A stretch of DNA of 64,000 bases, taken from IMG/VR virus record IMGVR_UViG_3300030102_007128. One strand, given 5' to 3'. The translations under genes were made by a program, and so were the position numbers. Positions 31,620-56,601 of the stretch are shown one piece after another. The DNA comes from an uncultured virus (IMG/VR IMGVR_UViG_3300030102_007128) (lineage: Duplodnaviria > Heunggongvirae > Uroviricota > Caudoviricetes). The notes below the pieces were generated by a model. It was given only the letters and a program-made list of their open reading frames with translations, ran no database searches and was not told the DNA's origin. The stretch's first letter is position 1; every line of letters begins with the position of its first letter.

Positions 31620-32348
31620 ATGGATAATTTAGACCAATATTTCTCTGATGCAGAAGAAAACATCTCAAATGAGTATATGTCAGCAAATGGCGTAAACGAT
31701 TGGGATGACGCTTTTGATTTCGGTGGTAATGAAGAAGAGTATTATAACGCAAATGGCGCAAGTGCCGTAGATGCTTCAGCATCACAGCCTTACATCATTT
31801 CTTTATATAACTCATCAGGTGGTGGTACTGACTTAAGTAATATCGAAGTGGGGAATGCTTATTCCGCAATCGCTCTTACTTCTGGAAATATCTCTACTAC
31901 GGCAGGTATCAAGTATTCTATGGGTATCACAGGTGTTACCTATTTAGAGTGGCTATGGCAAACTACTACAAAACCTTTTGTAGTTGGTTTAACATATTTA
32001 CAATCTGATACTTCGGCTCAAGTTCTTCAAACTATCGTTGTAAAAGTAGTTGATGCTAACGGTAACCAACAACAGAAAACTCTTGTACCTACAATCGACC
32101 CTTACCAAAATCAATCAGACATTACGGTATTGAAACATACTTATAAGTTTGATGGATTTACTTCACTTACGGTGAATGAAATCACAAATGGTAAGACCCT
32201 TAAAGTTTACTTATTCCCAAGTGAAACTGCTACTATTGGTAGAAGTTTAACTGGAAGTTCGATAGCGAGAGGGTATTCTAACCCGAATGTAGTTAGACAA
32301 GATAAAATTGTTCTTGGTCAAGGCGTTGCACGAGCATTGAGAGGCTAA
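31620..32348 (+). CDS. Putative major capsid protein (beta-rich, jelly-roll candidate) with acidic N-terminal leader
   Basis: T/S/V/Y-rich beta pattern. 10 of 15 Ile codons are ATC, whereas ATA/ATT dominate elsewhere. It has its own terminator and lies near the ATPase at the head of the membrane-protein cluster. The fold is inferred. Confidence 0.5.
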   Translation: MDNLDQYFSDAEENISNEYMSANGVNDWDDAFDFGGNEEEYYNANGASAVDASASQPYIISLYNSSGGGTDLSNIEVGNAYSAIALTSGNISTTAGIKYSMGITGVTYLEWLWQTTTKPFVVGLTYLQSDTSAQVLQTIVVKVVDANGNQQQKTLVPTIDPYQNQSDITVLKHTYKFDGFTSLTVNEITNGKTLKVYLFPSETATIGRSLTGSSIARGYSNPNVVRQDKIVLGQGVARALRG

Positions 32349-32378
32349 TTATAGCCTTAAAGAGATTTTAGATTAAAT

Positions 32379-32424
32379 GGGGGTTAGACATTAGCAAAGG
32401 CTTATGTTTTTACCCCCTTTTTTT
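32379..32424 (+). terminator. Intrinsic terminator after the capsid candidate
   Basis: GGGGGT...ACCCCC stem with inner AGACAT/ATGTTT and AGC/GCT pairing, followed by T7. Confidence 0.75.
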
Positions 32425-32442
32425 AACATTAAAAAGAAATAA

Positions 32443-32934
32443 ATGACATTATACGATTATATAGCATCTAAAAACCCATATCAAGCCAATGATTTATTGA
32501 GTGAATATGGTTTTCAAGAAAGTGATAGTATATCTACAATCGCTTCAAGATTAAAAATGATTGTCAGAAAATATAAAAAAATAGGACTTCAAGAATTATA
32601 TAAAATACACCCTGATATCAAGTTATTTGATAGTTTTGGTAAAAGTAATGAAGTCGAGATGAATTTCGTAAATGCAACAGGAAGAACACCTGAATTTATC
32701 AATCCTGACCAAGTAGATGAGCCAATACCATCGAGTTCAGAAAATACTTTCACACAAGAACGATTTGATGAGTTGAAAAGAATACAAAAAGACGCTCTTA
32801 AAGAAGTTATCAGAATGAAGAGAGATATGAAAAGAAGAAGGATGAACAATATGAATAGCAATCAAATGAATATGAACAATATGTTAATGTTAGGTATAGT
32901 GTTTGCTATTGGATATATGATAGGTAAAAAATAA
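32443..32934 (+). CDS. C-terminally anchored membrane protein
   Basis: FVNATG motif, coiled coil, C-terminal TM followed by KK. Confidence 0.7.
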   Translation: MTLYDYIASKNPYQANDLLSEYGFQESDSISTIASRLKMIVRKYKKIGLQELYKIHPDIKLFDSFGKSNEVEMNFVNATGRTPEFINPDQVDEPIPSSSENTFTQERFDELKRIQKDALKEVIRMKRDMKRRRMNNMNSNQMNMNNMLMLGIVFAIGYMIGKK

Positions 32935-32936
32935 TT

Positions 32937-33590
32937 ATGATTTTTGAGAGCCATAAACTATTTGAAAATATAAAAAATATGAGAGGAACTAACGATATGA
33001 GTATTTCAAGAGAACTAATTTTGTCAGAATTGAGTAAAATTATTATGTCAAGACCAACAGAAGTTAGAAGAGTTCTAATTAATTGCGGTGTTGCGATAAA
33101 CGAAAGACCTTCAAAAGTAGAATTAGTTAAAAAGGTCAATTATAATATAGCACAAAGTAAGTGTTTAAGAGATAATTTAGGACAAATGATTGCCGACAAT
33201 CAAATACCTTTTGGAAACGAAGAGTATATGAACGCAGAAGGTGGTCAGACAGGAAGTAATTTTGGTCAGAATTGGGGTTCAACAATAGGTAATATTATTG
33301 GAACAGGTTTTGGTATATGGCAAACAGGACAGAGTAGAAAAGAAGGTCAATCACAAAGAGCCCACGAAATGGAGTTGGCAAGATTGAATACGGAAACTAT
33401 GTTAAAACAGATGGAACTTCAACAGCAGTTGTCAGGTATGCAAAATGTTCAACAGGCTGGAACAGGAGGTGGAAGCAATATGATTACTATATTATTAGTA
33501 TTGGGGGCTGTTGCAGTTATTGGTTTTGCCATTTATGCGAGTAGAAAAAAGGCTCCAGCAACGGTTACAACAGCACCAGTGTCTAACTAA
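32937..33590 (+). CDS. Membrane protein (helical N-domain, YMNAEG, amphipathic segment, coil, AG-TM)
   Basis: Architecture read from the translation. Confidence 0.7.
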   Translation: MIFESHKLFENIKNMRGTNDMSISRELILSELSKIIMSRPTEVRRVLINCGVAINERPSKVELVKKVNYNIAQSKCLRDNLGQMIADNQIPFGNEEYMNAEGGQTGSNFGQNWGSTIGNIIGTGFGIWQTGQSRKEGQSQRAHEMELARLNTETMLKQMELQQQLSGMQNVQQAGTGGGSNMITILLVLGAVAVIGFAIYASRKKAPATVTTAPVSN

Positions 33591-33604
33591 TCGTTCTTTG
33601 AAAT

Positions 33605-33916
33605 ATGTTTGATGAAGCACAAGAAATAACTTTTGATAACAATAGTCAGTTAAACAAATCTAAACAAATGGTACCGCCAGATGTTCAGACAAGTATAAAT
33701 AATATTGTTAATACAAATCAATCAGATGTTGCTAAAAACGAAACTAAAGAAATGATAAAAGGTGGCGTTTTAGGAGCGGTTATTGGGGCAATATTGTGTC
33801 TTTACAGAGGTAAGAAAGTATGGTTAGGCGTGTTAGCAGGAGGTTTAGCAGGTGGATATTTAGCAAAAGAAGGTATTGTAAAAATATCTAAAGAAAAAAA
33901 AGAAGATAAAGAATGA
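33605..33916 (+). CDS. Glycine-zipper membrane protein
   Basis: GGVLGAVIG and GVLAGGLAGG segments. Confidence 0.7.
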   Translation: MFDEAQEITFDNNSQLNKSKQMVPPDVQTSINNIVNTNQSDVAKNETKEMIKGGVLGAVIGAILCLYRGKKVWLGVLAGGLAGGYLAKEGIVKISKEKKEDKE

Positions 33917-34743
33917 ATTTATTATTTAAGACAAAACAGAGGTCATTAACATTAATGATAGAAGTTGCTACAAGACAACCAGAAAAAATACAGATTGTAG
34001 TAAAAGATATCAATAAGCCTGACACAAAATATACTGATAGATATTCTACGGTAAATGGAGTTCAGAGATTTTTTGTTAGAATGCCTATTTCGCCTTACGA
34101 AGCACTTGTAAGTGTCTATAATAATAAAAATGGCAATCTGAAACAAGGAGCAGACCCTACTTTCAAAGTAATTAAAGTAGATGCTCGACCATTAGAAAGA
34201 AAAATGGATTGTGTTGATTGGAGTAATCCTAAAATAAGAGATTTTGTAGGATTTGCTCAACAATTTAGTAATAATGCAGGTATATTAAGTGCAGGAGCCT
34301 ATCCAAATGGTAGCACATATATATCTGATGAAGGTAATTTTAGAATAGATTACTTTGATAATATAAAAAGTAAACAAGGAAGAGTTATTCCCACACCCGC
34401 AAGAATAAGTCAAACAAAAGGGATTATTCAAGTAAGTAGAGACCATTTCAAGAAATTCACGGTTCCTATGAGAATGGCAATTTTACTACACGAATTTTCT
34501 CACTTCTATCTTAACGATAGAATGGAAGATGAAACAGAGGCAGATTTGAACGGATTACTTATCTACCTCGCACTCGGTTACCCGAGAATTGAAGCGTATC
34601 AGTCGTTTTTAACAACATTCAAAGACACGCCTACGCAACAAAATAAAGAGCGTTATGAGATTTTACATCAATTCATAACGAATTTTGAAAGAAATAAATT
34701 TTGCACGACACATAGTAATCCAATGTTGAGAGCAAGTAAATAA
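33913..34743 (+). CDS. Zincin metallopeptidase (candidate maturation protease)
   Basis: AILLHEFSH plus downstream ETEAD; located within the structural cluster. Confidence 0.7.
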   Translation: MNLLFKTKQRSLTLMIEVATRQPEKIQIVVKDINKPDTKYTDRYSTVNGVQRFFVRMPISPYEALVSVYNNKNGNLKQGADPTFKVIKVDARPLERKMDCVDWSNPKIRDFVGFAQQFSNNAGILSAGAYPNGSTYISDEGNFRIDYFDNIKSKQGRVIPTPARISQTKGIIQVSRDHFKKFTVPMRMAILLHEFSHFYLNDRMEDETEADLNGLLIYLALGYPRIEAYQSFLTTFKDTPTQQNKERYEILHQFITNFERNKFCTTHSNPMLRASK

Positions 34744-34753: not shown

Positions 34754-35335
34754 ATGAATACAGATTTTAGACCGACTAACGGAAAAGCGCCCTGGACTAA
34801 TTTTGCAGGTAATAAGTTTGATAACTTTTATGTAAATGCGGCAGGTCGTCCAGGAGACCCTTTATCTCCTGTTCCTAATATAGGAAGAAGAAGAGGGCCA
34901 GGTGGAGATAGAATTCCTACCAATACAACTTACAGAGCAGGAGGAGGTCCACGACCATATTTACCACCAATGATTGAAAGAAGTGGTGGTCCAGGTGTAG
35001 GACCTCAAGATGTTACTGGTTTAACTCCGAGAATGGCAGGTCCAATTAGACCAATATCAATAGTAGGAGATAATATGAGAACAGGAAAACCTACAACATT
35101 AGGTAGTCCAGGACCGACTATACCACCAAGACCTTTTAGATTAGGTCCACCAGAAGGACTACAATCTCATATGGCTTTTAGAACAAGAGGACCAAGAGAG
35201 AGATATGATAGATTTGATGGAGGTCAAGATATGACAAAAACAAGTGTAGGTTCTTATGTTTTAGGTATGGTATCTGTGGCGGCATTATTTTTCGTAATAG
35301 GATACGGATTACAAAAAGGAAAAGAAACAGCATAA
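34754..35335 (+). CDS. Pro/Gly/Arg-rich C-anchored membrane protein
   Basis: WTNFAG and YVNAAG motifs; C-terminal LFFVIGYG anchor. Confidence 0.7.
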   Translation: MNTDFRPTNGKAPWTNFAGNKFDNFYVNAAGRPGDPLSPVPNIGRRRGPGGDRIPTNTTYRAGGGPRPYLPPMIERSGGPGVGPQDVTGLTPRMAGPIRPISIVGDNMRTGKPTTLGSPGPTIPPRPFRLGPPEGLQSHMAFRTRGPRERYDRFDGGQDMTKTSVGSYVLGMVSVAALFFVIGYGLQKGKETA

Positions 35336-35348: not shown

Positions 35349-36059
35349 ATGAATACAGGATTTACAAATGATGAAATAATTGATGTAGCCTCACAATATG
35401 GCTCATTTATGAACCAAAGTGGTAATTTCATTGATGATAATGAGAATGTCGATTTGAACAATGAAGATGTTGTAAGAGTTGCTACTTCTATGGGGATGTT
35501 TTTTAATAACACAGGGTTTATTGATGAGAACGCAAATCAACCAAGTATAACACTTGACCATCACGATAGTCGTTTAGGACCAAATATGGTTTTAGAAACT
35601 GCTGATACAGAATACTCTAATCACCCAGGATTTTTAGGAATTACTTGGAGTTCAAAGAAAAGAGAAGAACAGAGATATCAAAAAGAACTTAATAAAGTAA
35701 ATAACTCTTATCCAAATACAGGAAGTTGTGCAGTTATGACTGATAGTTTGAATAGATTAGATGATAGTATAGCCCAATTAGAAAGTGAAGAAGGAGAAGG
35801 AGGAAGAGGAGCGAGAAGAGTTCGTGCAAGAGCATTAAAAGCCAGAAATGCAAGAAGAGGAAGTGTTGCGGCAGGTCAAGAGGCGGCTTGTGCTGGTGAA
35901 CAAGCAGAAATAGACAGAATGGCTATGTGGCAAACTCAAATGATGGCACCACCAACTTCAGGACCCGCAGGAATTAGTGCTACTAATTTATTATTAGGAG
36001 TTGTAGTTTTAGGAGGTTTAGTATATGGTATAACAAGATTAGCGAGACCAAAATCTTAA
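35349..36059 (+). CDS. Membrane protein with NxxG motifs, Cys-bounded hairpin and AG-TM
   Basis: FMNQSG, FFNNTG and YSNHPG motifs; C-terminal TM. Confidence 0.7.
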   Translation: MNTGFTNDEIIDVASQYGSFMNQSGNFIDDNENVDLNNEDVVRVATSMGMFFNNTGFIDENANQPSITLDHHDSRLGPNMVLETADTEYSNHPGFLGITWSSKKREEQRYQKELNKVNNSYPNTGSCAVMTDSLNRLDDSIAQLESEEGEGGRGARRVRARALKARNARRGSVAAGQEAACAGEQAEIDRMAMWQTQMMAPPTSGPAGISATNLLLGVVVLGGLVYGITRLARPKS

Positions 36060-36071: not shown

Positions 36072-36602
36072 ATGAGGCATAAATATTATAATCAAAGTGG
36101 TAATGTGATGAAATGTAATGGTCAGTATGTTACTAATGACCCTTGCTTTCCTGTATGTAGTTTGCCTGATGGAAGTGGTTGTGATTGGGCAGGAATTTAT
36201 GGAGGAGGAATTGGAGGTCCTGCAGAACAATACTCTATTACAACTGGAGATGCTGCCGCAGGAAACACATCAACAAGAACGGTAACTCCAATGATAGACC
36301 CTTATCAAAGTATAACTCCTTCAATGTTAAGTTTTGATGGTTCAAATAGAGAAACCGGTACTGATATAGATGGTAGTCCTACTGATTTATGGTTTAATCA
36401 GAGTGGAGATAATGTAATAGAAGTAGGAGGGCATAAATACGCATTTGAGCCTGTATTAAGTTTTAGACCTACTTGTGATACGATGGACGAAAGTGGAGAT
36501 GGAATTTTTACTAATCAGGATTGTAGCCAAAGACCTGGTATCGGTGGTGTTCCTGGTTTAGGAGTATCTGCTTTAAGGTTCAAAGATGGTAAAATGTATT
36601 AA
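36072..36602 (+). CDS. Cys/Gly-rich protein with NxxG motifs
   Basis: YYNQSG and WFNQSG; shares a 22-aa block with 41067..41831. Confidence 0.65.
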   Translation: MRHKYYNQSGNVMKCNGQYVTNDPCFPVCSLPDGSGCDWAGIYGGGIGGPAEQYSITTGDAAAGNTSTRTVTPMIDPYQSITPSMLSFDGSNRETGTDIDGSPTDLWFNQSGDNVIEVGGHKYAFEPVLSFRPTCDTMDESGDGIFTNQDCSQRPGIGGVPGLGVSALRFKDGKMY

Positions 36603-37226: not shown

Positions 37227-37586
37227 ATGAAAAAAATGACTGCAAATCAAATTTACAAGTTATCAGGTTCAAAAACTCCATTCGCAGAGTGGATAGGTGA
37301 ACAAAAAACTAAATACGGTGAAAAATTCATAGAAAATGAAGAGTTTATGAATATGGCCGGTAATTTTATTGGAGATGAAATGCCAAGAAGTCCACAACAA
37401 GTAGTTATGGAAAATGCTGATGAGAACATACAATATCCTCAAGGAGCAGGTATTTCTACTGAAATTGAACTTGGTGGAAGTGAAGTTTCTGCAAGTGCAG
37501 GAGTAAGTGGCTTAAGAAATCTTGTATTTATTGTTGGTGGTGTTGTATTAGCCGTTTACGCTTACAATAGATTTATAAAAAAATAA
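37227..37586 (+). CDS. Small C-anchored membrane protein
   Basis: FMNMAG motif; SAG-TM-KK. Confidence 0.7.
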   Translation: MKKMTANQIYKLSGSKTPFAEWIGEQKTKYGEKFIENEEFMNMAGNFIGDEMPRSPQQVVMENADENIQYPQGAGISTEIELGGSEVSASAGVSGLRNLVFIVGGVVLAVYAYNRFIKK

Positions 37587-41066: not shown

Positions 41067-41831
41067 ATGAATAGTAAATATTACAATTTCGATGGCTCTA
41101 ATAGAGAAACGGGAACTGATATGGACGGAGGACCATCTGATATCTGGTTTAACCAGCAAGGTCCTGAAGCACAAGCGCCATCAGGTTATCCAACCTGTGC
41201 CTCAACACAAGGTCAATGCCCTTGCTCGTATGGAGGTTGTATGGACCCTGCGGCAACAAACTATGACCCAAATGCTACTTGTGATGATGGTAGTTGTATA
41301 GCAGTAGTATCAGGATGTACCGACCCTAACTCTACTAACTATAATCCTTCAGCAAATACTGATGACGGAACTTGTTATACAGCAGTTTCTGGTTGTACCG
41401 ACCCAACTGCATCCAATTACAATCCTTTAGCAAACACAGATTGTGCTGGAAATTATTTAGGAGGACCTGTTGGTCCTTTACAAAATCAAGGACAACAACA
41501 AAACCAACAAGCCGCAGCGTTTAGTGGTTATTCTAACTTTAACACAGGATTTACTCCTAACCCAAATGCGCCAATGACAATATCAACAAGTCATCATTTA
41601 AGTGCGGCAGGTAGTGGATGTGGTTATTCTAATTTTAATACAGGTTTTGTTCCTGACCCTAATGCTCCAATGACAATATCTACAAGTCATCACTTAAGTA
41701 TGGCAGGTAGTGGAACAGATTGGCAGAATACAGGTTATTCAGGAACAGATTGGCAAGAGTATAGTGAAATGGCAGGAACTGATTGGCAAAGACAAGGCTA
41801 TTCAGGAACTTCTTGGCAAGAAGATTTATAA
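41067..41831 (+). CDS. Repeat protein with three GC[TM]DP..NY.P.A..D repeats and multiple NxxG-type motifs
   Basis: Translation; duplicated PNAPMTISTSHHLS and GTDWQ units. Confidence 0.75.
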   Translation: MNSKYYNFDGSNRETGTDMDGGPSDIWFNQQGPEAQAPSGYPTCASTQGQCPCSYGGCMDPAATNYDPNATCDDGSCIAVVSGCTDPNSTNYNPSANTDDGTCYTAVSGCTDPTASNYNPLANTDCAGNYLGGPVGPLQNQGQQQNQQAAAFSGYSNFNTGFTPNPNAPMTISTSHHLSAAGSGCGYSNFNTGFVPDPNAPMTISTSHHLSMAGSGTDWQNTGYSGTDWQEYSEMAGTDWQRQGYSGTSWQEDL

Positions 41832-42108: not shown

Positions 42109-42672
42109 ATGATAGGTTTTAGAAGAAGAGTAGCGAAATTAAGTTGTAAATCTTTAAGAAGAGTTAGAATTAGGCTTGCTATTAAAATTAGACAATTAGA
42201 TACTAATAACATTTTTCAACTTTTATCTCCAAATAGAGCCAGAATGATAAAAGTGTTAAAATCAAGATTAAAATATGTTAATAAGGTATATAGAGCAAAA
42301 TGTAGATTAAATTCAAGTGGAAGTTTCTTAAATCAAATTGGAGGAATACCTATTCCACCACCACCTTCAAATGCTACTATACCAGGTCAACCATATACAT
42401 CAATACCAAGACCTGGAGGACCAATTATGCCTATACCAAGACCAACACCACCGGTTTTGCCACCACCCCTACCAAGTGTTCCTTTTCATACTCATAATAT
42501 AGTAGATACTAATATAAGAAGAACAGGAGGTCCAATAGCAAGTCCTTATAGAGTTCCTGTACCAAGAGGAAACTATACTAATACACCAGGAACTTTACCT
42601 ACGGGTAGTGTAACACCTATGAGTATGTTTTCCGGTAATTCGACTTGGTTCAGTAGTGTAGATATGAAATAA
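42109..42672 (+). CDS. Basic Cys-hairpin plus Pro-rich protein
   Basis: Arg/Lys-rich N-half bounded by Cys; Pro-rich C-half. Confidence 0.65.
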   Translation: MIGFRRRVAKLSCKSLRRVRIRLAIKIRQLDTNNIFQLLSPNRARMIKVLKSRLKYVNKVYRAKCRLNSSGSFLNQIGGIPIPPPPSNATIPGQPYTSIPRPGGPIMPIPRPTPPVLPPPLPSVPFHTHNIVDTNIRRTGGPIASPYRVPVPRGNYTNTPGTLPTGSVTPMSMFSGNSTWFSSVDMK

Positions 42673-42688: not shown

Positions 42689-44194
42689 ATGAATAAATTA
42701 TGGTTTAATCAGGCAGGAGATGTATCAAGAGGAGCGAATATGGTTCCTCCTATGAATGGTTCTTCTGGACAAACATTAGTAGATATACCTCTACATCAAG
42801 CCTGTAAATATATAACTTCACACGGTATATGTGATATATACAACGCACATATGGCCAACGGAGATGTTCAATCGGCTATGCAGGCAATAAGCACATTTGC
42901 TTATCAAGAAGGTATATCTTCTCGAGATGCTTATCCACTTATTTTACAATGTTGTGGAGATAATACGCCAGGAGAAATTCCTTGTGAAGATTTTTGGCCT
43001 TCTGTTCAACAACAGCAAGGATGGTGTCAAAAATGGGCACAGGCTCAAGCAAGTGGTAATCCATTACAAATTCAGGCAGAGATATCAAATTTAGCAACAG
43101 CGTTTAATATAACAAACGACCAAGCAGAAAGTGTTTTTGTGAGATGTTGTCCAGGAACAAGTGGAGATGAACCTTGTCCTCCAGCAGACCCTAACTCGCC
43201 TTATTATACATTAGATTATTTCTGCACTTCAGATTATTGTGTTGATGGTCAAGGTAATCCTTTACCAAACGCACATCCTGATTGTGTATGTTGTCCAGGA
43301 ACTAATACTTCGACAGGACCTTGCCCACCTTCAGACCCTAATTCACCTTACAATACAAACGCACCAGAATTTTGTCCAAATTGTGTTCCAGGAGGATACT
43401 ACTACGGACACCCTGATTGTGTATGTTGTCCAGGAAATAACGAAATAGATGTAACACCTTGGTGTGACCAATATGTTCAAGCAGTTGATAACGCAGATTT
43501 ATCTGTAATACAACAAATAATAACACAAGTTTCAAATACATTCAATATAACTTGGCAACAGGCCGCACAACTATTATATGATGTTTGTATATGTCCTAAT
43601 AGTTCTGATGTTTGTAAAGACCCTAATTGGCAACAACTACCTCCAGGAGGAATGCCAGGTGAACCAAACTATCCAGGAGGTAAAAACAACTATTGTGATA
43701 GATGTGGTCAAGGAACAGGTTCTTTCCCTGTAAGTTGGATAAACGGACAATGGCAATATGACCCACAGAATGGGATAGATTATTGTCAATGTTGTCCTTC
43801 AAGTCCTGAAGGACCTTGTGATGGTTTCGTAGATAATGGTTGTTGCAATAAATGTGATGCGGCTAATGGAGACCCTACGACTAACAATATGGGAGGTTTG
43901 CCTTTAATGGGACCTAATCATCCGTGTTCTCAATTCTGTAATCAGTATGGAAGCACTTGCTGTCCTACAAACACAAATCAAGGAGGAAACACAGGAACTT
44001 CAACTTCACCTGATATGCCAATGGCAAGACAGGCACAAATTGGAAGTCCTGATAACCCACTTGGTTTAGGAAGTTTATCTGACCAGAAGTTATATTTTAC
44101 AGGACCAAATAATACGAGAAGAGCAGGAGATTTCTTAACTGATGACCCTGGTGACACTCAAACATTTGCAGAATTTGAAGAAGATGTACCATAA
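42689..44194 (+). CDS. Highly Cys-rich repeat protein
   Basis: WFNQAG; three ~43-aa helical Cys-bounded repeats and two PCPP.DPNSPY...HPDCVCCPG repeats. Confidence 0.75.
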   Translation: MNKLWFNQAGDVSRGANMVPPMNGSSGQTLVDIPLHQACKYITSHGICDIYNAHMANGDVQSAMQAISTFAYQEGISSRDAYPLILQCCGDNTPGEIPCEDFWPSVQQQQGWCQKWAQAQASGNPLQIQAEISNLATAFNITNDQAESVFVRCCPGTSGDEPCPPADPNSPYYTLDYFCTSDYCVDGQGNPLPNAHPDCVCCPGTNTSTGPCPPSDPNSPYNTNAPEFCPNCVPGGYYYGHPDCVCCPGNNEIDVTPWCDQYVQAVDNADLSVIQQIITQVSNTFNITWQQAAQLLYDVCICPNSSDVCKDPNWQQLPPGGMPGEPNYPGGKNNYCDRCGQGTGSFPVSWINGQWQYDPQNGIDYCQCCPSSPEGPCDGFVDNGCCNKCDAANGDPTTNNMGGLPLMGPNHPCSQFCNQYGSTCCPTNTNQGGNTGTSTSPDMPMARQAQIGSPDNPLGLGSLSDQKLYFTGPNNTRRAGDFLTDDPGDTQTFAEFEEDVP

Positions 44195-45506: not shown

Positions 45507-46151
45507 ATGAAAAAAGACAAATATTCAAATTTTATGGGAGATGATGGTAATTACAAAATATACCCACCACTTCCAAATCCAGACGGATTGAGAGGCAATC
45601 CTGATACTTTTGATTGGGCTATGAACCAAGGAGGCGATGGTCTTAACGGAACTCGTCCTTATATGAATTTTGATGGAGATGATGAATATAGTAATCATCC
45701 TGGATTTTTAGATATATTCAAAAGAAAAGATACCAAGATGATTGACTTGCCTGATGGTCAAGGAGGAACTAATCAGTATAGTTGGGGAGATATTCAAGCA
45801 GACCCTAATTTAATGCAACTTTATGACGCTAATCAAAACCTTAAAAAAGAAAAAAGAAGTCAATGGTGGGGTAATTTTGGTAAGAATATGGGTAATGTGT
45901 TAAATCAGTTTTCAACTGCTTATCAAAACACACAAAATAAACCAGGAGGTATTACAGACCCAAATTTTAATCAACCTATACAGCCTATAAATACTAATAC
46001 ACCTCCACCTACTCAAGCAGGTGTAGGAACAACTCAAATAATTGGTTATGTATTAATTGGAGTAGCAGTAATAGGATTATTAATATACGCAACAAAAGGA
46101 GATAGTGGCAAAACAATAGTAGTTCAAACACCTACAAAGCCAACGGCGTAG
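45507..46151 (+). CDS. C-anchored membrane protein with several NxxG motifs
   Basis: YSNFMG, YMNFDG and YSNHPG; TQAG-TM. Confidence 0.7.
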   Translation: MKKDKYSNFMGDDGNYKIYPPLPNPDGLRGNPDTFDWAMNQGGDGLNGTRPYMNFDGDDEYSNHPGFLDIFKRKDTKMIDLPDGQGGTNQYSWGDIQADPNLMQLYDANQNLKKEKRSQWWGNFGKNMGNVLNQFSTAYQNTQNKPGGITDPNFNQPIQPINTNTPPPTQAGVGTTQIIGYVLIGVAVIGLLIYATKGDSGKTIVVQTPTKPTA

Positions 46152-48165: not shown

Positions 48166-48708
48166 ATGGACAACAATACCCTAAAGTGGTTAGTGGCTGG
48201 TGTGGCTGTTTACCTACTTTTTATTAGAAAAAAAGAAACTCCCCCATCCCCAACTACACCTGTTGTAGATGATATACCAGGATGTACCGACCCAACCGCA
48301 AATAATTATAGTGATGTAGCGACTATTGATGATGGTTCTTGTATTTATGACCCTGTAACACCACTTATAGTTTCAGGATGCACGGACCCTTTAGCGACTA
48401 ATTATGACCCTTTAGCAACTGATGATGATGGTAGTTGTAATTTACCTGTGGTTGAAGTTTTAGGTTGCACAAACGCTTTAGCAGATAATTATAATTCTTT
48501 AGCAAGTTCAGATGATGGCTCTTGTACCTTTACAGAAGTAGATTGTTATTCAGATTGTCCAAACCCAACAATAGTTCCTTCAGTAGAAACTATATGTCCG
48601 GCAACACACCCTAATTTAACAATGCCACAATGTGCCGCACCAATTATTGGATGCCAAGATACAATGGCGACAAATTATAATCCTAACGCAACTCAAGGTT
48701 GCTCTTAA
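48166..48708 (+). CDS. N-anchored protein with GCTDP...DDGSC repeats
   Basis: Three full and one partial GCT[DN]..A.NY...A..DDGSC repeats. Confidence 0.75.
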   Translation: MDNNTLKWLVAGVAVYLLFIRKKETPPSPTTPVVDDIPGCTDPTANNYSDVATIDDGSCIYDPVTPLIVSGCTDPLATNYDPLATDDDGSCNLPVVEVLGCTNALADNYNSLASSDDGSCTFTEVDCYSDCPNPTIVPSVETICPATHPNLTMPQCAAPIIGCQDTMATNYNPNATQGCS

Positions 48709-48720: not shown

Positions 48721-49668
48721 ATGAGTAGAAATAGATGGTATAACGATAGAATTGATGAGCCTTGGCATAATCAAGCAGGTCCAGGTGGAGGTATGGCTAT
48801 GCCTAATCAGAATATGGCACAACCAAATCAACAGCCAAATCAAACACCTGTTAATCCTAATCTAAATCCACAAAATTTAGTCGCAGGATTGGCTTCGACA
48901 AATCCTGGTTCACCTGCTGTATATACTCCAGAAGTTCCTTATCAACCAGCAGTACCTTATCAACCGGCAGTATATAGTCCTGAAATCCCTTATCAACCGG
49001 CAGTTCCAGAGGTTCCGTATCAGGCAGCAGTTCCAGAGGTTCCTTATCAGGCGGCAGTATATAGTGACCCTATACCGGAAGTTCCAGGATACAATCCAAA
49101 TACAAACCCACAAAATTTAGTTTCAGGACCTACTGGAGAAGGAACACAACCTGCTACGCCTTGTCCTTGTCAGTATCAAATGAATTGTTGGTCTCAAACT
49201 TGTCCTTCGACATTACAAACTTACGGAGGTTTGAGTGCACCTGTTTGTCCACCAAACACACAAGAAACAGAAACAAATTGTTATGTTCCTCCTGTACCTG
49301 AAGTTCCGGCACAATTAATTTCGGCAGAAGTCCCTTATCAACCGGCTATACCTGAAGTTCCTTATCAGGCTGCGATACCTGAAGTTCCTTATCAGGCACC
49401 ACAATTAATTTCAGCAGAAGTTCCTGCACAACCAGAAGTTCCTTATCAGGCACCACAATTATTTACTTCAGCGATACCGCCAACATATAATATGAATTGT
49501 TGGTCGCAGACCTGTCCTTCAACATTGAGTGAGTATGCTAATCTACCTTCACCGAGTTGTCCGGCTAACACACAAGTTACTGAAACAAATTGTAATTATA
49601 TTCCGGCTAATCAAAATCAGAATATGGCAGCATTTTCAGGAAATGGTCAATTTATGTTCGATTATTAA
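48721..49668 (+). CDS. Pro-rich repeat protein (PEVPYQ[PA]A units, duplicated MNCWSQTCPSTL domain)
   Basis: Translation; WHNQAG motif. Confidence 0.75.
   Translation: MSRNRWYNDRIDEPWHNQAGPGGGMAMPNQNMAQPNQQPNQTPVNPNLNPQNLVAGLASTNPGSPAVYTPEVPYQPAVPYQPAVYSPEIPYQPAVPEVPYQAAVPEVPYQAAVYSDPIPEVPGYNPNTNPQNLVSGPTGEGTQPATPCPCQYQMNCWSQTCPSTLQTYGGLSAPVCPPNTQETETNCYVPPVPEVPAQLISAEVPYQPAIPEVPYQAAIPEVPYQAPQLISAEVPAQPEVPYQAPQLFTSAIPPTYNMNCWSQTCPSTLSEYANLPSPSCPANTQVTETNCNYIPANQNQNMAAFSGNGQFMFDY
48928..49455 (+). repeat. Coding minisatellite-like repeats (GAAGTTCCTTATCAG-like units)
   Basis: Many imperfect copies encoding EVPYQ, in two clusters. Confidence 0.7.
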
Positions 49669-50056: not shown

Positions 50057-50661
50057 ATGAATAAAGGATTAAAAATAACACTTATAGCACTTGGGGTAAT
50101 AGGNNNNNNNNNNTAGGGACAGGTGTAGGCTTGTATTTTCTTTTAAGAAAGCCTAAAAACCCTAATATACCTAATACTCCTAACACTCCAAGTAGTCCTA
50201 ACACACCTACTACTCCTGTTAGTGAATTTCCGTTAAAAAGAGGAAGTAAAGGAGATAAAGTTAAAGAACTACAAAAGTTCTTAAACATAAAGTATAGTAG
50301 TGGTTTAGTAGTTGATGGTGACTTTGGTCCGAAAACACAAGGAGCCTTAAATACGGCTACAGGATTATCACAAGTATCAGAAAGTTGGTATCAAAACAAT
50401 GTGTTGAATGTGAATATTCCTACTATGGTAGATAGAGATAATGATGGTATTCCTGATACAATAGATATAGATGGAGGAGATGGTACAGGAGTAAGTTCAA
50501 ACGCAGTTGGAAATAATAATACAAATAGTTTATATAATCCAAATAACCCAAACACTTTATATCAACTTGACCCTATTGTTGCTGTTGCTGACAACACAGG
50601 AATTGGAACAGGATATGGTTATTTTGATGGAACTTGGTTTAATGAACAAAATGAATATTAA
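50057..50661 (+). CDS. N-anchored peptidoglycan-binding protein with DxDxDG Ca-binding motif
   Basis: FPLKRGSKGDKVKELQKFLN...LVVDGDFGPKTQGAL (PG_binding_1) and DRDNDGIPD. The start at 50057 lies upstream of the N gap at 50104-50113. Confidence 0.75.
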
Positions 50662-52040: not shown

Positions 52041-53084
52041 ATGGCAGATAATTGGATACAATCAGTAGATAAAGAAATGAAAAGAAAGGGTACCGTAGGT
52101 GCTTTTACTAAAGAAGCCCAAAAAGCAGGTATGTCAGTTCACGATTTTGCTACTAAAGTTATGAAAAACCCTGAAGATTTTTCTAAAAGAACAAGAGAAA
52201 GAGCAAATTTAGCCTTAACTTTTGAAAGAATTGCTAAAGACAAAAAGAAAAAGAAAATGATGTATGGAGGTAAAACTAAAATGGCTCACGGAGGTATGTC
52301 GCAAGGATATGATGATAAATTAGATGAAAGTTTAGGTATGAGAACAGGAACAGGTAGTATGAGTAAACAATCATACAAAGACAGAAGAGATGAGAGTAAA
52401 GCCGGAAATAAGATGTTAGGAAGAAGAGCATATGCAAGTGTTGAAAGTATGGATAAAGGAGATAGAATGATGATGGATGGAGGCGATACTGAAATGATGT
52501 ATGGTGGTAAAACCAAGATGATGCACGGAGGAAAAATGAAGATGATGGAAGGCGGTAAAATGAAAATGGCTCACGGAGGTAGAATGAAACAAGGATATGA
52601 TGCGAGAGAAGATGAGAGTTTAGGAATGAGAAGAGGAAAACAGAGTTCTAAAAAAGTATCTGCTAAAGGAAGAAGAGATGATTCCTATGGTAAATTCGGT
52701 AAAAGAGATGAAGAAGATAGAGATATTACTTTAGCAAAAGGTGGTAAATTATCTGCTGAAGCAGTTAAAAAAGGATATATAAGAAGAGATAGATACGATA
52801 AACTGAAAAAAGAGAAAGATGAAAGGATTGATGACTTAAAACAAGATTTGAAAGATAAAGGAGCAGATTGTGCCGAAGACATCAAAACAATGAAGAAAGA
52901 TATTGGTAAGAAAGTTGCAAAACGAATAGACCAAGTAGAAAAACAGAAAGAGAAAGAGTGTGATACTGCTTTCGAAACTTTAAGTGAAACGAAAGACAAG
53001 AGTAAAAAAGAAGAAACAACAGATAGTTTTGTTCTTGGAGGTGTCGCAGGATTGTTGTTAGGAATATTTTTTATGGGTAGATAA
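52041..53084 (+). CDS. Basic protein with eight [ML]xxGG linkers, duplicated QGYD...DESLGMR unit and C-terminal glycine-zipper TM
   Basis: MMYGG x2, MAHGG x2, MMDGG, MMHGG, MMEGG and LAKGG. Confidence 0.75.
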   Translation: MADNWIQSVDKEMKRKGTVGAFTKEAQKAGMSVHDFATKVMKNPEDFSKRTRERANLALTFERIAKDKKKKKMMYGGKTKMAHGGMSQGYDDKLDESLGMRTGTGSMSKQSYKDRRDESKAGNKMLGRRAYASVESMDKGDRMMMDGGDTEMMYGGKTKMMHGGKMKMMEGGKMKMAHGGRMKQGYDAREDESLGMRRGKQSSKKVSAKGRRDDSYGKFGKRDEEDRDITLAKGGKLSAEAVKKGYIRRDRYDKLKKEKDERIDDLKQDLKDKGADCAEDIKTMKKDIGKKVAKRIDQVEKQKEKECDTAFETLSETKDKSKKEETTDSFVLGGVAGLLLGIFFMGR

Positions 53085-53356
53085 TGAGTTGTAAATGTAA
53101 AAATAGTAGAAAAGAGTTTCATCCTTGTCAGCACGGAGGAAAATGTCAATGTGGCGGTAAGTGTAGAGGAAAACAGACAAATGATTTTTACAATGCCGCA
53201 GGACAATATGATGAACACAATTTTAATGTAGTTGGAAGTTTAGATGAGTTCAAAGATGAAAGTGAAAATGTAGGTAGAGTTATTCTATATACAATAGGTG
53301 GTTTAACACTTGCTGGTATAGGATACTATATGTATAAATATAAATTAAAAAAATAA
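53084..53356 (+). CDS. Small protein with metallothionein-like Cys N-terminus and C-terminal TM
   Basis: CKC...C.HGGKCQCGGKC; FYNAAG motif. Confidence 0.65.
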   Translation: MSCKCKNSRKEFHPCQHGGKCQCGGKCRGKQTNDFYNAAGQYDEHNFNVVGSLDEFKDESENVGRVILYTIGGLTLAGIGYYMYKYKLKK

Positions 53357-54611: not shown

Positions 54612-55148
54612 ATGAATAGAGAAATAAAAGAAATAGGAGTTTATGTATTAGATAACAGAGGTGAAGTTATTTCGTTTTTGAATAGAAATGGCTACTCAAA
54701 TCTACCTTCTAACGCACCATTATCTACAATCAATGATGTTATCGCAGACAATATGTTTAGTGAGCATTTTTGGAATATGTTTGTAGATGATATGCAAAGA
54801 AATTCTGGATATTCAAACTGGCTTGTTGAAGTTGTAGGTATAGTTACCCAAATAGGTGTGAGTATAAATAAAATGTTTGTAGATGCTAAAATGGCTTTAT
54901 TTCAGAGAAATATGATGAGCCGTCAAGAAGTTCGAAACAGAGAAACAGAACAATTTTACAAAGATTTAGCAGAGTTAAACGCAAAAAAACAAATGGCGAT
55001 AGAGTTAGGTGTCGCACAACAAGATGTTTTATTAAAGAGAGAATTACAAAGAGAAAAAGGAAAAAGATATGATTATCTTATTATGTTTGGCTTATTCGTA
55101 GGTGGAGCATTAACAATAGGATATATAATTAGAAAAAAAAATAAATAA
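54612..55148 (+). CDS. Membrane protein, paralogue of 54062
   Basis: VL.N..EVI...N..G N-domain shared. Confidence 0.7.
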   Translation: MNREIKEIGVYVLDNRGEVISFLNRNGYSNLPSNAPLSTINDVIADNMFSEHFWNMFVDDMQRNSGYSNWLVEVVGIVTQIGVSINKMFVDAKMALFQRNMMSRQEVRNRETEQFYKDLAELNAKKQMAIELGVAQQDVLLKRELQREKGKRYDYLIMFGLFVGGALTIGYIIRKKNK

Positions 55149-55150
55149 TT

Positions 55151-55294
55151 ATGGCAAAAAAAAGAAAAATGAACGCCTTTATGTCGGCGAAAGAAAGAGC
55201 AAGAAAATCAGGGAAAAAGTCATTTTCATACAATGGTAAAACATATGTAGCAAAAAAGACAAAAACAGGTATGATGATATATAAAAGAAAGTAA
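55151..55294 (+). CDS. 47-aa very basic protein (not in ORF track), possibly DNA-binding
   Basis: MAKKRKMNAFMSAKERARKSGKKSFSYNGKTYVAKKTKTGMMIYKRK. Confidence 0.65.
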   Translation: MAKKRKMNAFMSAKERARKSGKKSFSYNGKTYVAKKTKTGMMIYKRK

Positions 55295-55537
55295 ATGAAA
55301 GAATTAGTAAAACCAGTAATGATTGGAGTGGGTATAAATTTAGTTTTACCTATGATAGTAAAACCTTACGCTACTCCTGAAGAAATAAAGCCTCCAACAG
55401 GAAATGCGGGAGATTTGAATTTCAAACAACAATTAGTTCATATGATGGTTCACCACGCACAAGTTCCTATCTCGAGTAGTATTATAGTGGGAACAATAGT
55501 AGGTTTAAGTGTTTATTTAGCAGGAAAAATAAAATAA
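55295..55537 (+). CDS. Small two-helix membrane protein
   Basis: INLVLP...ATPEEIKPP...HMMVHHAQVP plus a hydrophobic C-terminus. Confidence 0.7.
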   Translation: MKELVKPVMIGVGINLVLPMIVKPYATPEEIKPPTGNAGDLNFKQQLVHMMVHHAQVPISSSIIVGTIVGLSVYLAGKIK

Positions 55538-55689
55538 TGAAAGAATTTGGCGATAAAGTAGAATGGAGAACCGTTGTAGTATCAGTATTAGCCTTTGTCG
55601 CAGTAGAAATGTTGTTAGAAATCTACATTTTTCAACCAGGAGTTAGAAGAATAGTAGATGAAGAATTAGAAAAAAGAGGATATGAATAG
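55537..55689 (+). CDS. 50-aa membrane peptide (not in ORF track)
   Basis: MKEFGDKVEWRTVVVSVLAFVAVEMLLEIYIFQP...; overlaps both neighbours at their start/stop codons. Confidence 0.55.
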   Translation: MKEFGDKVEWRTVVVSVLAFVAVEMLLEIYIFQPGVRRIVDEELEKRGYE

Positions 55690-56080
55690 TATAGTTAAAG
55701 ACGGATACGCTGATGTAGGCAACACTTTAGGTGGTAATACCTGGTTTAGTCAGTCAGATAACTTTTTTGATGATGACACATCACAGCCTTATATATTTAA
55801 TCTAACAACAGGTAATAATGTAATAGGGGGTTTGCCTACGGGAGGTCCTGCCGCATTAGGTTTTAGTGGCGAAGTGTATTCGATAGACGGATACAGAAGA
55901 AATAGTAAGGATGTAAATAATCCTTATAATTTAATACCAAGTGGAAATATATCAATGAAAAATGTAGATTTTCCGGTATTAGGAATAGACAATTTTGGTA
56001 ATTCTCAAATGATGTTCCCTGAAAATGATTACTATTTTGAAGGAACTGAAGTTTTGGAAATACCAATGAACAAAAATTAA
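55682..56080 (+). CDS. Hypothetical N/G-rich protein
   Basis: 132-aa ORF. Confidence 0.65.
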   Translation: MNSIVKDGYADVGNTLGGNTWFSQSDNFFDDDTSQPYIFNLTTGNNVIGGLPTGGPAALGFSGEVYSIDGYRRNSKDVNNPYNLIPSGNISMKNVDFPVLGIDNFGNSQMMFPENDYYFEGTEVLEIPMNKN

Positions 56081-56112
56081 AAATTAACAATTAACAATTA
56101 AAATTAAAAAAA

Positions 56113-56601
56113 ATGGCAAAAGAAATGGATTTAATGAAAGTAGGGCTTTATGCTCTTGCTGGTTTTGGTGCCTTCGCTGTATATAACAAATACATCGCAA
56201 AGTCATCAGAAAAGCCAGCACTAATGGACCCAGCAGAAGAACCTATGTCTTCGTTCACAGGAACGAGATGGCAACAAGACACAGCGGGTGGAACATTGTG
56301 GCAAAGAGGAAATGTTTTCTCAAATGCGGCAGGAGGCCCTGGACCGCCTAATTGTCCTCAAGGATGGGGTATTTACAGAACTGGAGGACCTGGTTCATCA
56401 GGTGCAACAGGACAAGAACTATACCGTGATATTATGAGAAATAAAAGAGCGTGTGATACAAGAAAGAGAATGGGAATGTCAAAAAGTGGTAGAATGATGA
56501 ATATGTCAGGAAGTGGAACAGATTGGCAAAACACAGGATACTCTGGAACTGCTTGGCAAGAATACTCAAATGCCGCAGGTTGTGGTTCTTGTGGAGCGTA
56601 A
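56113..56601 (+). CDS. N-anchored protein with NxxG motifs
   Basis: FSNAAG, MMNMSG and YSNAAG; shares GSGTDWQNTGYSGT.WQEYS with 41067. Confidence 0.7.
   Translation: MAKEMDLMKVGLYALAGFGAFAVYNKYIAKSSEKPALMDPAEEPMSSFTGTRWQQDTAGGTLWQRGNVFSNAAGGPGPPNCPQGWGIYRTGGPGSSGATGQELYRDIMRNKRACDTRKRMGMSKSGRMMNMSGSGTDWQNTGYSGTAWQEYSNAAGCGSCGA

What the first reader, a model, noticed from the sequence alone, without database searches (positions are those of the whole stretch)
31620..56601. Second motif, [FYWM]xNxxG, in the capsid candidate and about 16 other proteins
Seen: at least 25 copies, including YYNANG, FVNATG, YMNAEG, WTNFAG, YVNAAG, FMNQSG, YSNHPG x2, YYNQSG, WFNQ[STQA]G x4, FMNMAG, YYNFDG, YSNFMG, WHNQAG, FYNAAG, FSNAAG and YSNAAG, plus shorter F[SDT]G variants. 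They occur in otherwise dissimilar proteins, including the outlier at 4367. In the capsid candidate the motif ends the acidic leader just before the beta-rich core. It is nearly mutually exclusive with the GG motif. Inference: a shared maturation cleavage site or assembly-docking tag, giving two separate address systems in one virus.
Basis: partly seen in the sequence, partly recalled or inferred. Interest (0 to 1): 0.85.

Follow-up and report, generated by a model that had tools for sequence, protein, structure and literature searches.

The report
Shared address tag on virion proteins
A six-residue motif (aromatic-x-Asn-x-x-Gly) really does recur far above chance on the capsid-protein leader and about twenty otherwise unrelated small proteins of an uncultured marine membrane-type virus, is kept in its relatives, and most likely works as a common assembly or maturation tag.

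Summary
In ORFs at 31620-56601 the strict motif [FYW]xNxxG occurs 31 times in 20 proteins, against 4.7 expected from per-protein shuffles (z 12.5). Outside that block there are 4 copies against 5.2 expected, one of them the N-terminal WFNQTG of the 4367 protein. Reversed, re-spaced and residue-swapped versions are not enriched, and codons vary, so selection acts on the protein. The motif is conserved. Of 101 capsid-candidate homologues with a recognisable leader, 92 carry it there. It sits in the same alignment column in two families of tail-anchored membrane proteins. It is enriched 4.5-fold in the 10 kb after the capsid gene of 52 related viral contigs, but not in the 10 kb before it.

The element is an uncultured virus of about 80-100 kb. 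It has a jelly-roll capsid candidate, a HerA/FtsK-like ATPase, many single-pass membrane proteins and a conserved zinc-protease-like gene at 33913.

My best reading is a short linear address tag read by one common partner during assembly or maturation. The partner is probably the 33913 protease, for which there is only weak complex support (0.56, best control 0.01). Cleavage is unproven. "Mutual exclusion with GG" is not supported for plain GG.

The parts
31620..32348 (+). Capsid-protein candidate, 242 aa. It has an acidic N-terminal leader (1-55) with a relaxed motif copy YMSANG (residues 19-24) and the strict copy YYNANG (residues 41-46, nt 31740-31757), then SQPYI and a jelly-roll core.
   Evidence: AF2 with alignment A1 gave pLDDT 64; strands span 58-200 and the leader 17-55 is below 50. 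VIA-align Z 5.5-6.1 to jelly-roll capsid proteins (GFLV, FLiP, phiCjT23, PBCV-1). Foldseek found nothing at E<=0.001. There are 440 homologues. The leader motifs are conserved.
33913..34743 (+). Conserved zincin-like protein, 276 aa: an N-terminal beta-sandwich (1-96) plus a helical HExxH domain. It is the candidate reader or protease for the tag.
   Evidence: A homologue is present in 55 of 63 loci. Of the 8 without, 6 end too early and 2 are the distant L062/L063. HExxH is in 56 of 56. H193, E194, H197, E207 and D211 are invariant. AF2 pLDDT 90. Residues 128-262 match BepA (M48) at Z 8.2, rmsd 4.3, 124 aligned. Only sub-threshold Pfam hits: SprT-like 11 of 48, M48 3 of 48, M56 3 of 48. Complex with capsid leader residues 1-60: 0.56, best control 0.01, weak support.
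28598..29419 (+). HerA/FtsK-like P-loop ATPase, the packaging ATPase candidate.
   Evidence: Weak Pfam DUF87 match (E 0.0016) and PHROG terminase match (7e-6). Conserved in 60 of 63 loci at 45-59% identity.
4367..4669 (+). Outlier: a 100-aa acidic soluble protein with WFNQTG at residues 6-11 (nt 4382-4399). It is encoded outside the structural block.
   Evidence: Only 4 homologues were found. The 85%-identical one keeps WFNQMG at its N-terminus.
32443..32934 (+). Tail-anchored membrane protein directly after the capsid gene; FVNATG at residues 75-80 (nt 32665-32682).
   Evidence: 16 of the 17 family members shown carry [FY]x[NG]xxG at the same place between the N-terminal domain and the C-terminal membrane segment.
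32937..33590 (+). Tail-anchored membrane protein; YMNAEG at residues 97-102 (nt 33225-33242).
   Evidence: The gene in the same position in related genome G002 carries four tandem copies with a 16-aa period.
34754..35335 (+). Tail-anchored Pro/Gly-rich protein; WTNFAG (residue 14) and YVNAAG (residue 26).
   Evidence: It is a paralogue of 44231.
35349..36059 (+). Tail-anchored protein; FMNQSG (20), FFNNTG (51), YSNHPG (89).
   Evidence: Its paralogues 36622 and 53363 carry degenerate copies.
36072..36602 (+). Soluble protein; YYNQSG at residue 5 and WFNQSG at residue 107.
   Evidence: It shares the segment FDGSNRETGTD-DG-P-D-WFNQ-G with 41067.
37227..37586 (+). Tail-anchored protein; FMNMAG at residues 40-45.
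   Evidence: 10 of the 13 family members shown keep a motif copy between the conserved N-terminal helix and the membrane segment.
41067..41831 (+). Soluble Cys-repeat protein; YYNFDG at residue 5 and WFNQQG at residue 27.
42109..42672 (+). Protein with a basic N-terminal domain; FLNQIG (73) and YTNTPG (156).
   Evidence: N-termini resembling that of 42109 by eye, followed by Y/FLNQ[ST]G at residues 77-82, precede the 42689-like domain in the longer homologues P0132, P0135-P0137 and P0150. BLAST of 42109 against P0132, P0136 and P0150 gave no hit at E<=1e-3.
42689..44194 (+). Cys-rich soluble protein, 501 aa; WFNQAG at residue 5 (and FCNQYG at 416, possibly chance).
   Evidence: 17 of 27 homologues carry a strict motif. 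In 10 of these it lies within the first 20 residues. 3 more have WFNISAG, WFQASG or WFQVSG there.
45507..46151 (+). Tail-anchored protein; YSNFMG (6), YMNFDG (52), YSNHPG (61).
48721..49668 (+). Pro-rich repeat protein. Its N-terminal tag RWYNDRIDEPWHNQAG contains the strict copy at residue 15.
   Evidence: Its first 20-29 residues match the N-termini of the 42689 homologues P0126 and P0133 (70% and 52% identity), while the rest is unrelated. This suggests a portable tag.
53084..53356 (+). Small Cys-rich tail-anchored protein; FYNAAG at residue 35.
56113..56601 (+). Protein with an N-terminal membrane segment; FSNAAG (69) and YSNAAG (151, 12 residues from the C-terminus).
55682..56080 (+). 132-aa protein with a degenerate tag (WFSQSD-NFFDDD) followed by TSQPYIFNL, the same junction as in the capsid candidate.
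   Evidence: hhalign against A1 aligned 15 columns at the junction only, probability 37%. Sequence.

Best explanation
The motif is a genuine, selected short linear motif. Its core is [FYW]-x-N-x-x-G. The extended consensus across the virus family is acidic-acidic-[FY]-x-N-A-[SADT]-G-[F]. Asn is replaceable by Gly in some lineages.

It sits in disordered leaders, in linkers and at chain ends. It marks the capsid-protein candidate, many tail-anchored membrane proteins, several soluble Cys-rich proteins and one small acidic protein encoded elsewhere.

I read it as a common address tag. One shared partner recognises it while the particle is built, which brings otherwise unrelated proteins to the same assembly site. 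The most likely reader is the conserved zincin-like protein at 33913 (a beta-sandwich plus an HExxH domain). It would bind the tag and probably cut at or near it as a maturation step, in the way the phage T4 capsid-targeting sequence and the adenovirus protease sites work.

Shown: enrichment, exact-spacing specificity, conservation in orthologues, location in low-confidence or linker regions, and conservation of the zincin.

For: Enrichment: 31 copies against 4.7 expected in the block, 4 against 5.2 outside it. Only the exact spacing and residues are enriched. Codons at the fixed positions follow background usage, so this is not a DNA repeat.

Conservation in relatives: across 52 related IMG/VR loci (11 of 63 were dropped because my regex did not find the capsid ORF) there are 332 copies against 73 expected in the 10 kb from the capsid gene onward, and 47 against 52 in the 10 kb before it. 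In three whole related genomes the copies peak in the 5-kb bins right after the capsid gene.

Conservation in orthologues:
- The G of the first leader copy is one of only two invariant leader residues in A1.
- 92 of 101 capsid homologues have a strict copy in the leader, and 99 of 101 a relaxed one.
- The motif keeps the same column in the 32443 family (16 of 17) and the 37227 family (10 of 13).
- N-terminal tags are kept in diverged 42689 homologues and shared with the unrelated 48721.

Evidence for a reader: 33913 is conserved in every related locus that holds enough downstream sequence, L062 and L063 excepted, with HExxH in 56 of 56. Its model is confident and its best match is an M48 zincin. 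The complex prediction of 33913 with capsid leader residues 1-60 scored 0.56 (runs 0.56, 0.45, 0.62), best of 3 controls 0.01. The tool's verdict was 'weak support'. That mark was reached by 116 of 157 solved complexes and 2 of 215 mismatches. Scores at 0.60 or under came from only 18 of those solved complexes and from both passing mismatches. The runs agree in at least 30% of contacts, and partner pLDDT is at least 42.

Against: No data show cleavage or binding. The complex score is in the band the tool calls more often wrong than right, no contacts were returned, and the leader's N-terminal helix rather than the motif could be what scores.

Some placements fit multivalent docking better than cutting: four copies with a 16-aa period in G002 53972, copies at residues 5-6, and copies at the extreme C-terminus (G001 846-1562 ends in FYNNQG; 56113 has one 12 residues from its end).

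The AF2 monomer of the capsid candidate does not dock its own leader, which says nothing about an oligomer.

The capsid assignment itself rests on a medium-confidence model and Z of about 6. No cultured relative exists to anchor any of this.
Confidence: 0.5

Rival explanations
1. Docking only. The tag is never cut. It binds a pocket on the capsid lattice, mimicking the capsid protein's own N-terminal arm, or on another scaffold. In this way it ties the membrane proteins and cargo to the shell.
For: The capsid leader carries two copies, and membrane proteins carry one to four, some in tandem with a regular period. Copies at extreme N- and C-termini suit docking. The tags lie N-terminal to C-terminal membrane anchors in 10 of the 20 motif proteins (plus my reading).
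Against: The AF2 monomer leaves the leader undocked. No oligomer test could be run. A conserved protease in the structural module would then need another substrate set. The leader scored with the protease (weak).
Confidence: 0.25
2. Homotypic sticker. The aromatic/Asn/Gly segments bind one another, like low-complexity aromatic-rich kinked segments, and form a matrix or condensate between shell and membrane or at the assembly site.
For: The block proteins are rich in G, N, P, Q and aromatic residues, and related short patterns (F[SDT]G, YSN[FH], GT-WQ repeats) are also enriched. Many proteins carry several copies.
Against: Enrichment is confined to one exact spacing with fixed N and G. The extended consensus with flanking acidic residues and Ala at +3 points to recognition by a folded partner. 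The comparison with kinked segments is recalled, not tested.
Confidence: 0.1
3. Host-directed motif. The tags bind a host envelope or periplasmic protein during entry, as the disordered translocation domains of colicins do. They would play no role in assembly.
For: The motifs lie in disordered Gly/Asn/aromatic-rich regions of putative virion membrane proteins. The colicin comparison is from general knowledge only.
Against: The capsid-protein leader and a soluble acidic protein also carry the tag. The motif is kept across capsid homologues only 31-43% identical, from many environments and so probably many hosts.
Confidence: 0.07
4. Asn chemistry. The motif is an N-glycosylation sequon for the virus's glycosyltransferases, or an Asn-driven self-cleavage or cross-link site.
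For: Asn is fixed by definition. A glycosyltransferase and sugar-nucleotide cluster lies at 25245-28601.
Against: Asn is replaced by Gly at the orthologous position in a whole capsid clade (FIGVDG, FFGADG) and in the 32443 family (FLGADG). That fits a turn-forming role, not a reactive side chain. None of the four cluster proteins has a BLAST match in the 63 loci (0-2 loci) or in three whole related genomes that still show the enrichment.
Confidence: 0.03
5. No function. The pattern comes from composition, low complexity or recent paralogy.
For: The block is N- and G-rich, and some motif proteins are paralogues.
Against: Per-protein shuffles keep composition and still give z 12.5. Reversed and re-spaced controls are flat. 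The motif falls in 18 BLAST families. It holds its position in orthologues while the flanks diverge.
Confidence: 0.02

Closest known systems
Capsid targeting sequence (CTS) of phage T4 internal proteins, removed by the gp21 prohead protease
   Same: A short shared tag on otherwise unrelated proteins, including anti-defence cargo, directs them into the forming particle (PMC3012670, passages read). Here N-terminal copies at residues 5-6 occur on five unrelated proteins, one of them a small acidic protein encoded outside the structural block.
   Different: The sequence differs. Copies are also internal, tandem and C-terminal, and they occur on the capsid protein's own leader and on membrane proteins. 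The virus has a jelly-roll capsid candidate and a HerA/FtsK-like ATPase, not an HK97-fold head with a scaffold core. The candidate protease is a zincin, not a serine protease. Removal of the tag is not shown. (That gp21 cuts the CTS is recalled, not read here.)
Adenovirus protease (adenain) consensus sites in virion precursor proteins
   Same: One virus-coded protease and one short consensus shared by many structural precursors in a jelly-roll-lineage virus (recalled knowledge).
   Different: Adenain is a cysteine protease with (M/I/L)XGG-X type sites. Here there is an HExxH protein and an aromatic-x-Asn-x-x-Gly tag. No cleavage is demonstrated.
Multivalent aromatic short linear motifs of eukaryotic endocytic adaptors (DPF/DPW, FxDxF, NPF) that bind beta-sandwich appendage or EH domains
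   Same: Short aromatic-centred motifs, often several per disordered region, read by one folded hub near a membrane (recalled knowledge). 33913 has an N-terminal beta-sandwich.
   Different: There is no sequence or evolutionary relation. The host is bacterial.
M48/M56/SprT-type zincins (BepA, Ste24, BlaR1, SprT)
   Same: 33913 has HExxH plus a downstream Glu. Its best structural match is BepA at Z 8.2.
   Different: No curated family is reached: best Pfam E 0.013, below all cut-offs; no NCBIfam hit; no PDB sequence match. The third ligand lies only 10 residues after the second His. An extra N-terminal beta-sandwich is present.

Membership tests
Protease cleavage-site consensus of a virion maturation protease | A virus-coded protease conserved with the structural genes | tested here: met
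   The 33913 family is present in 55 of 63 loci (6 of the other 8 are truncated). HExxH is in 56 of 56. The fold is zincin-like.
Protease cleavage-site consensus of a virion maturation protease | A short consensus shared by several structural proteins | tested here: met
   31 copies in 20 proteins against 4.7 expected. The motif is conserved in relatives.
Protease cleavage-site consensus of a virion maturation protease | Proteins are actually cut at the consensus | not testable with these tools
   This needs particle proteomics or an in vitro assay.
Protease cleavage-site consensus of a virion maturation protease | Protease and substrate segment contact each other | tested here: inconclusive
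   Complex score 0.56, best control 0.01, verdict 'weak support', no contacts given.
Capsid-targeting tag (T4 CTS-like) | The same short tag on unrelated proteins that end up in the particle | tested here: inconclusive
   The tag is shared by 18 BLAST families and is portable between 48721 and the 42689 family. Presence of these proteins in particles was not testable.
Capsid-targeting tag (T4 CTS-like) | The tag is N-terminal and sufficient for incorporation | tested here: not met
   Only 5 window proteins have the tag at residues 5-6. Most copies are internal, and some are C-terminal. Sufficiency was not testable.
Peptidase family M48 (for 33913) | Match to the curated family model above its cut-off | tested here: not met
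   3 of 48 members match at best E 0.015, below the gathering score.
Peptidase family M48 (for 33913) | HExxH plus a Glu ligand, zincin fold | tested here: met
   H193, E194, H197 and E207 are invariant. BepA match Z 8.2, rmsd 4.3, 124 aligned. The Z value is borderline by the tool's own note.
[quoted passage not shown] | Jelly-roll fold | tested here: inconclusive
   pLDDT 64. VIA Z 5.5-6.1 to FLiP, phiCjT23, PBCV-1 and GFLV capsid proteins, mixed with non-viral beta-sandwiches. Foldseek found nothing at E<=0.001.
[quoted passage not shown] | Linked FtsK/HerA-type packaging ATPase and membrane proteins | tested here: met
   The ATPase lies 2.2 kb upstream and is conserved in 60 of 63 loci. 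Most block ORFs have one membrane segment (plus my reading).
EF-hand / DxDxDG calcium loop | Acidic ligands at loop positions 1 and 12 | tested here: not met
   Position 1 is the aromatic residue and position 12 is not acidic in the family consensus F-x-N-A-D-G-F-I-D-D-D-L. The loop definition is recalled.

The most novel reading that the evidence does not exclude
An uncultured family of large (about 80-100 kb) marine membrane-type viruses sorts its whole particle proteome with one portable peptide tag. The proteome includes the capsid protein, more than ten unrelated tail-anchored membrane proteins, soluble Cys-rich proteins and an injected cargo protein encoded among anti-defence genes. A dedicated beta-sandwich-zincin reads the tag and then clips it. 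This would be a SLiM-plus-hub sorting and maturation system not described for bacterial viruses with internal membranes.
Probability: 0.25. Interest if true: 0.8.

Novelty: new variant of a known kind. Interest (0 to 1): 0.66.

Why it matters
Shared tags that address proteins to a forming virus particle are known in only a few well-studied tailed phages and in adenovirus. Here a different tag, with a different candidate reader, marks the structural module of a widespread virus group that is uncultured and, in the three paper searches I ran, undescribed.

The tag gives three practical handles. It offers a sequence-only way to predict which of the many unannotated small proteins are particle components. 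It gives a direct biochemical experiment: tag peptide plus the 33913 protein or the capsid protein. And it is a possible tool for loading foreign proteins into such particles.

Tried and rejected
- **Composition, low complexity or paralogy as the cause:** rejected.
- **DNA-level repeat:** rejected, because codons are varied.
- **Glycosylation sequon or Asn chemistry:** disfavoured. Asn is swapped for Gly in orthologues, and the glycosyltransferase cluster is not conserved.
- **EF-hand-like calcium loop:** considered because the family consensus reads x-N-A-D-G-F-I-D. Rejected because loop positions 1 and 12 do not fit, and the window's own copies lack the downstream Asp pattern.
- **De novo three-residue pattern search in the block:** dominated by intragenic repeats (PxxPxxP, PEVPYQ, TDWQ). 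YxNxxG and FxNxxG came out at z of about 7 each.
- **Cultured relatives:** tblastn of the capsid candidate and of the ATPase against 50,697 phage records found nothing.
- **Single-protein locus search in viral contigs:** found nothing. The alignment-based search found 63 loci.
- **Other searches without a result:** earlier notes of this scan, none. ESM Atlas, no hit at or above 0.8. PDB sequence profile of 33913, none. NCBIfam, none for 33913 or the capsid candidate. The 4367 protein has no match in five related virus records.
- **55682 as a capsid paralogue:** only the 15-column junction aligns.
- **Paper searches for the virus group:** searches listed nothing that describes it (listings and abstracts only).
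- **Not run, for lack of jobs:** a complex test of tag peptides against oligomeric capsid protein.

Full report
**What the window is.** All long ORFs lie on the + strand and G+C is about 26-38%. The left half encodes:
- a split DarB-like helicase (6101-12284) and an ArdA-containing 1184-aa protein (14649-18203);
- a PAP2 phosphatase-like membrane protein (21302);
- an Amidase_3 endolysin (22134) and a RusA-like resolvase (22977);
- a glycosyltransferase and sugar-nucleotide cluster (25245-28601);
- a HerA/FtsK-like P-loop ATPase (28598-29419) and a methyltransferase (29412).

From 31620 to about 57800 there are some 45 small ORFs with no family match. Nearly all have one hydrophobic segment, most often at the C-terminus (plus my reading of the sequences). 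No whole genome is held for the window. No cultured phage matches the capsid candidate or the ATPase.

**The capsid candidate.** The 31620 protein has 440 homologues in marine and other metagenomes, on contigs up to about 100 kb. AF2 (pLDDT 64) gives an N-terminal helix, a low-confidence stretch at 17-55, and a beta-sandwich at 58-200. The aligner that does not depend on Foldseek ranks jelly-roll capsid proteins (GFLV, FLiP, phiCjT23, EhV, PBCV-1) among its top rows at Z 5.5-6.1, mixed with other beta-sandwiches. Foldseek found nothing at E<=0.001. With the linked ATPase and the many membrane proteins, a PRD1-like particle with an internal membrane is a reasonable inference, but it is not shown.

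**Checking the observation.**
- Inside 31620-56601 there are 31 strict [FYW]xNxxG copies in 20 of 44 ORFs, against 4.7 +/- 2.1 expected from 1000 shuffles that keep each protein's composition (z 12.5).
- Outside there are 4 copies against 5.2 expected. One is WFNQTG at residues 6-11 of the 4367 protein.
- The reverse pattern and three of the four re-spaced patterns run at 0.4-1.5x. The adjacent-aromatic pattern [FYW]NxxG is at 2.7x in the block (z 3.9) and 1.2x in the loci; it probably reflects copies with an aromatic residue also at position 2. Replacing N with D/S/Q/G, G with A/S/N, or the first residue with I/L/V, M or a charged residue gives 0.4-1.8x.
- F[SDT]G is also enriched (19 against 5.2).
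- Codons at the fixed positions follow background usage.
- The 20 motif proteins fall into 18 BLAST families.
- A handful of hits look like chance: those in 33913, 41851, 51364 and 54612.
- Mutual exclusion with GG fails for a plain GG dipeptide, since 18 of 20 motif proteins also have GG.

**Conservation.**
- In alignment A1 of 25 capsid homologues the leader holds two motif positions. The Gly of the first is one of only two invariant leader residues.
- Among the 120 listed homologues, 114 are at least 200 aa long and 101 have a recognisable leader-core junction. Of those 101, 92 have a strict copy in the leader (22 have two or more) and 99 a relaxed copy.
- The leader architecture across the family is: helix, then F-x-N-A-D-G-F-I-D-D-D, then L-S-F-T-G-D-D-F-F-N-A-x-G, then a linker, then SQPY. 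One clade has Gly in place of Asn.
- The gene next to the capsid gene (32443 family) keeps [FY]x[NG]xxG at one place in 16 of the 17 members shown. The 37227 family keeps it in 10 of 13. The flanks diverge in both.
- In 52 related loci (11 of 63 dropped because my regex missed the capsid ORF), the 10 kb from the capsid gene onward hold 332 copies against 73 expected. The 10 kb before it hold 47 against 52.
- In three whole related genomes the copies peak right after the capsid gene. One neighbour has four tandem copies with a 16-aa period.
- Homologues of the Cys-rich 42689 protein keep N-terminal W-F-N or W-H-N-Q-x-G tags. The unrelated 48721 protein shares that tag.
- A logo from 268 distinct copies shows E/D at -2 and -1, Ala at +3 (6x), S/A/D/T at +4 and Phe at +6 (5.5x).

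**The candidate reader.** BLAST of the window's proteins against the loci shows a small conserved core: PAP2 (56 loci), 23870 (58), the ATPase (60), the capsid candidate (63) and 33913 (55). Of the 8 loci without a 33913 homologue, 6 end too early and 2 are the distant L062 and L063. HExxH is present in 56 of 56 members, and H193, E194, H197, E207 and D211 are invariant. AF2 gives pLDDT 90, with a beta-sandwich at 1-96 and a helical domain whose best match is the M48 protease BepA (Z 8.2, rmsd 4.3, 124 aligned), followed by 3c37 (Z 6.5) and Ste24 (Z 5.9). No curated family is reached.

The single complex job paired 33913 with capsid leader residues 1-60. It scored 0.56 (runs 0.56, 0.45, 0.62), best control 0.01. 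The tool calls this weak support and returned no contacts. That mark was reached by 116 of 157 solved complexes and 2 of 215 mismatches. Scores at 0.60 or under came from only 18 of the solved complexes and from both mismatches that passed. The runs agree in at least 30% of contacts, and partner pLDDT is at least 42.

**Mechanism.** The exact spacing, the conservation inside fast-evolving linkers, the multiple copies and the portability all point to a short linear motif read by a folded partner. The Asn-to-Gly swaps suggest a turn (both residues favour such backbone angles; general knowledge) flanked by aromatic residues, not a reactive Asn. Tail-anchored proteins expose their N-terminal parts to the cytoplasm, where capsid protein and 33913 are made. 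If the membrane ends up inside the shell, as in PRD1-type viruses (general knowledge), these parts face the shell.

I therefore read the motif as an address tag for assembly. 33913 is the most likely reader, and cleavage is a probable but unproven consequence. Tandem and terminal copies fit pure docking better, so that rival stays strong. The glycosylation reading is weakened by the Asn-to-Gly swaps and by the absence of the glycosyltransferase cluster from relatives that keep the motif.

**Comparison and novelty.** The nearest known systems are the T4 capsid-targeting sequence (PMC3012670, passages read) and adenovirus protease sites (recalled). This differs from both in the tag sequence, in tag placement, in the inclusion of the capsid leader and membrane proteins, in the type of candidate enzyme and in the virus type. 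Two searches for the virus group (listings and abstracts only) found no description of it. I did not search for the motif itself in the literature, because a degenerate pattern cannot be searched as words.

Noticed in passing
window 6141-6150, 8295-8304, 18184-18193, 19517-19526, 22813-22822, 50104-50113, 62640-62649: There are seven runs of exactly 10 N. Several sit at or near gene junctions, for example between the two DarB-like ORFs and at the ends of the 14649 and 22134 ORFs. ORF boundaries there may therefore be artefacts of masking or scaffolding.
   Followed up: no
window 6101-18203: A large anti-restriction region: a DarB-like helicase split into 738 + 1330 aa ORFs across an N run, a 783-aa unknown, and an 1184-aa protein with a central ArdA domain. 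None of them carries the motif.
   Followed up: partly
window 41067-41831, 48166-48708, 57119-57838: A repeated Cys-bounded module of about 22 aa (G-C-T-D-P-x-A-x-N-Y-x-x-x-A-x-x-D-D-G-S-C) occurs in three proteins. It has no Pfam match.
   Followed up: no
window 52041-53084: A 347-aa tail-anchored protein has a repeated M-[MA]-[YHE]-G-G-[KMR] unit, about 7 copies. Its homologue in G005 is part of a 1371-aa protein.
   Followed up: partly
window 55682-56080: A 132-aa protein repeats the capsid candidate's junction (degenerate tag, acidic run, then TSQPYIFNL), but nothing else aligns. It could be a minor shell or vertex protein.
   Followed up: partly
window 42109-44194; proteins P0132, P0135-P0137, P0150: In the longer homologues of 42689 (P0132, P0135-P0137, P0150), a basic N-terminus that resembles 42109 by eye is followed by a motif copy at residues 77-82 and then the 42689-like domain. 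This suggests the adjacent genes 42109 and 42689 are one protein there. BLAST of 42109 against P0132, P0136 and P0150 found no match at E<=1e-3.
   Followed up: partly
G001 (L064-L069) 17225-18418, also L062, L063, L007 6784, L018 7715: Some related genomes carry a second, distant capsid-like gene. It has a basic rather than an acidic tagged leader, and there is no motif enrichment after it.
   Followed up: partly
window 21302-22237, 23870-25003, 47477-47734: Besides the ATPase, the capsid candidate and 33913, three other proteins are conserved across the family: the PAP2-like membrane phosphatase, a largely disordered 377-aa protein with a basic C-terminus, and an 85-aa tail-anchored protein. 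Their roles are unknown.
   Followed up: no
window 48721-49668: This protein is built of tandem Pro-rich repeats (P-E-V-P-Y-Q-A-A and variants). These repeats dominate the de novo pattern statistics.
   Followed up: no
window 58278-58949: An Fe/Mn superoxide dismutase gene lies just after the structural block.
   Followed up: no
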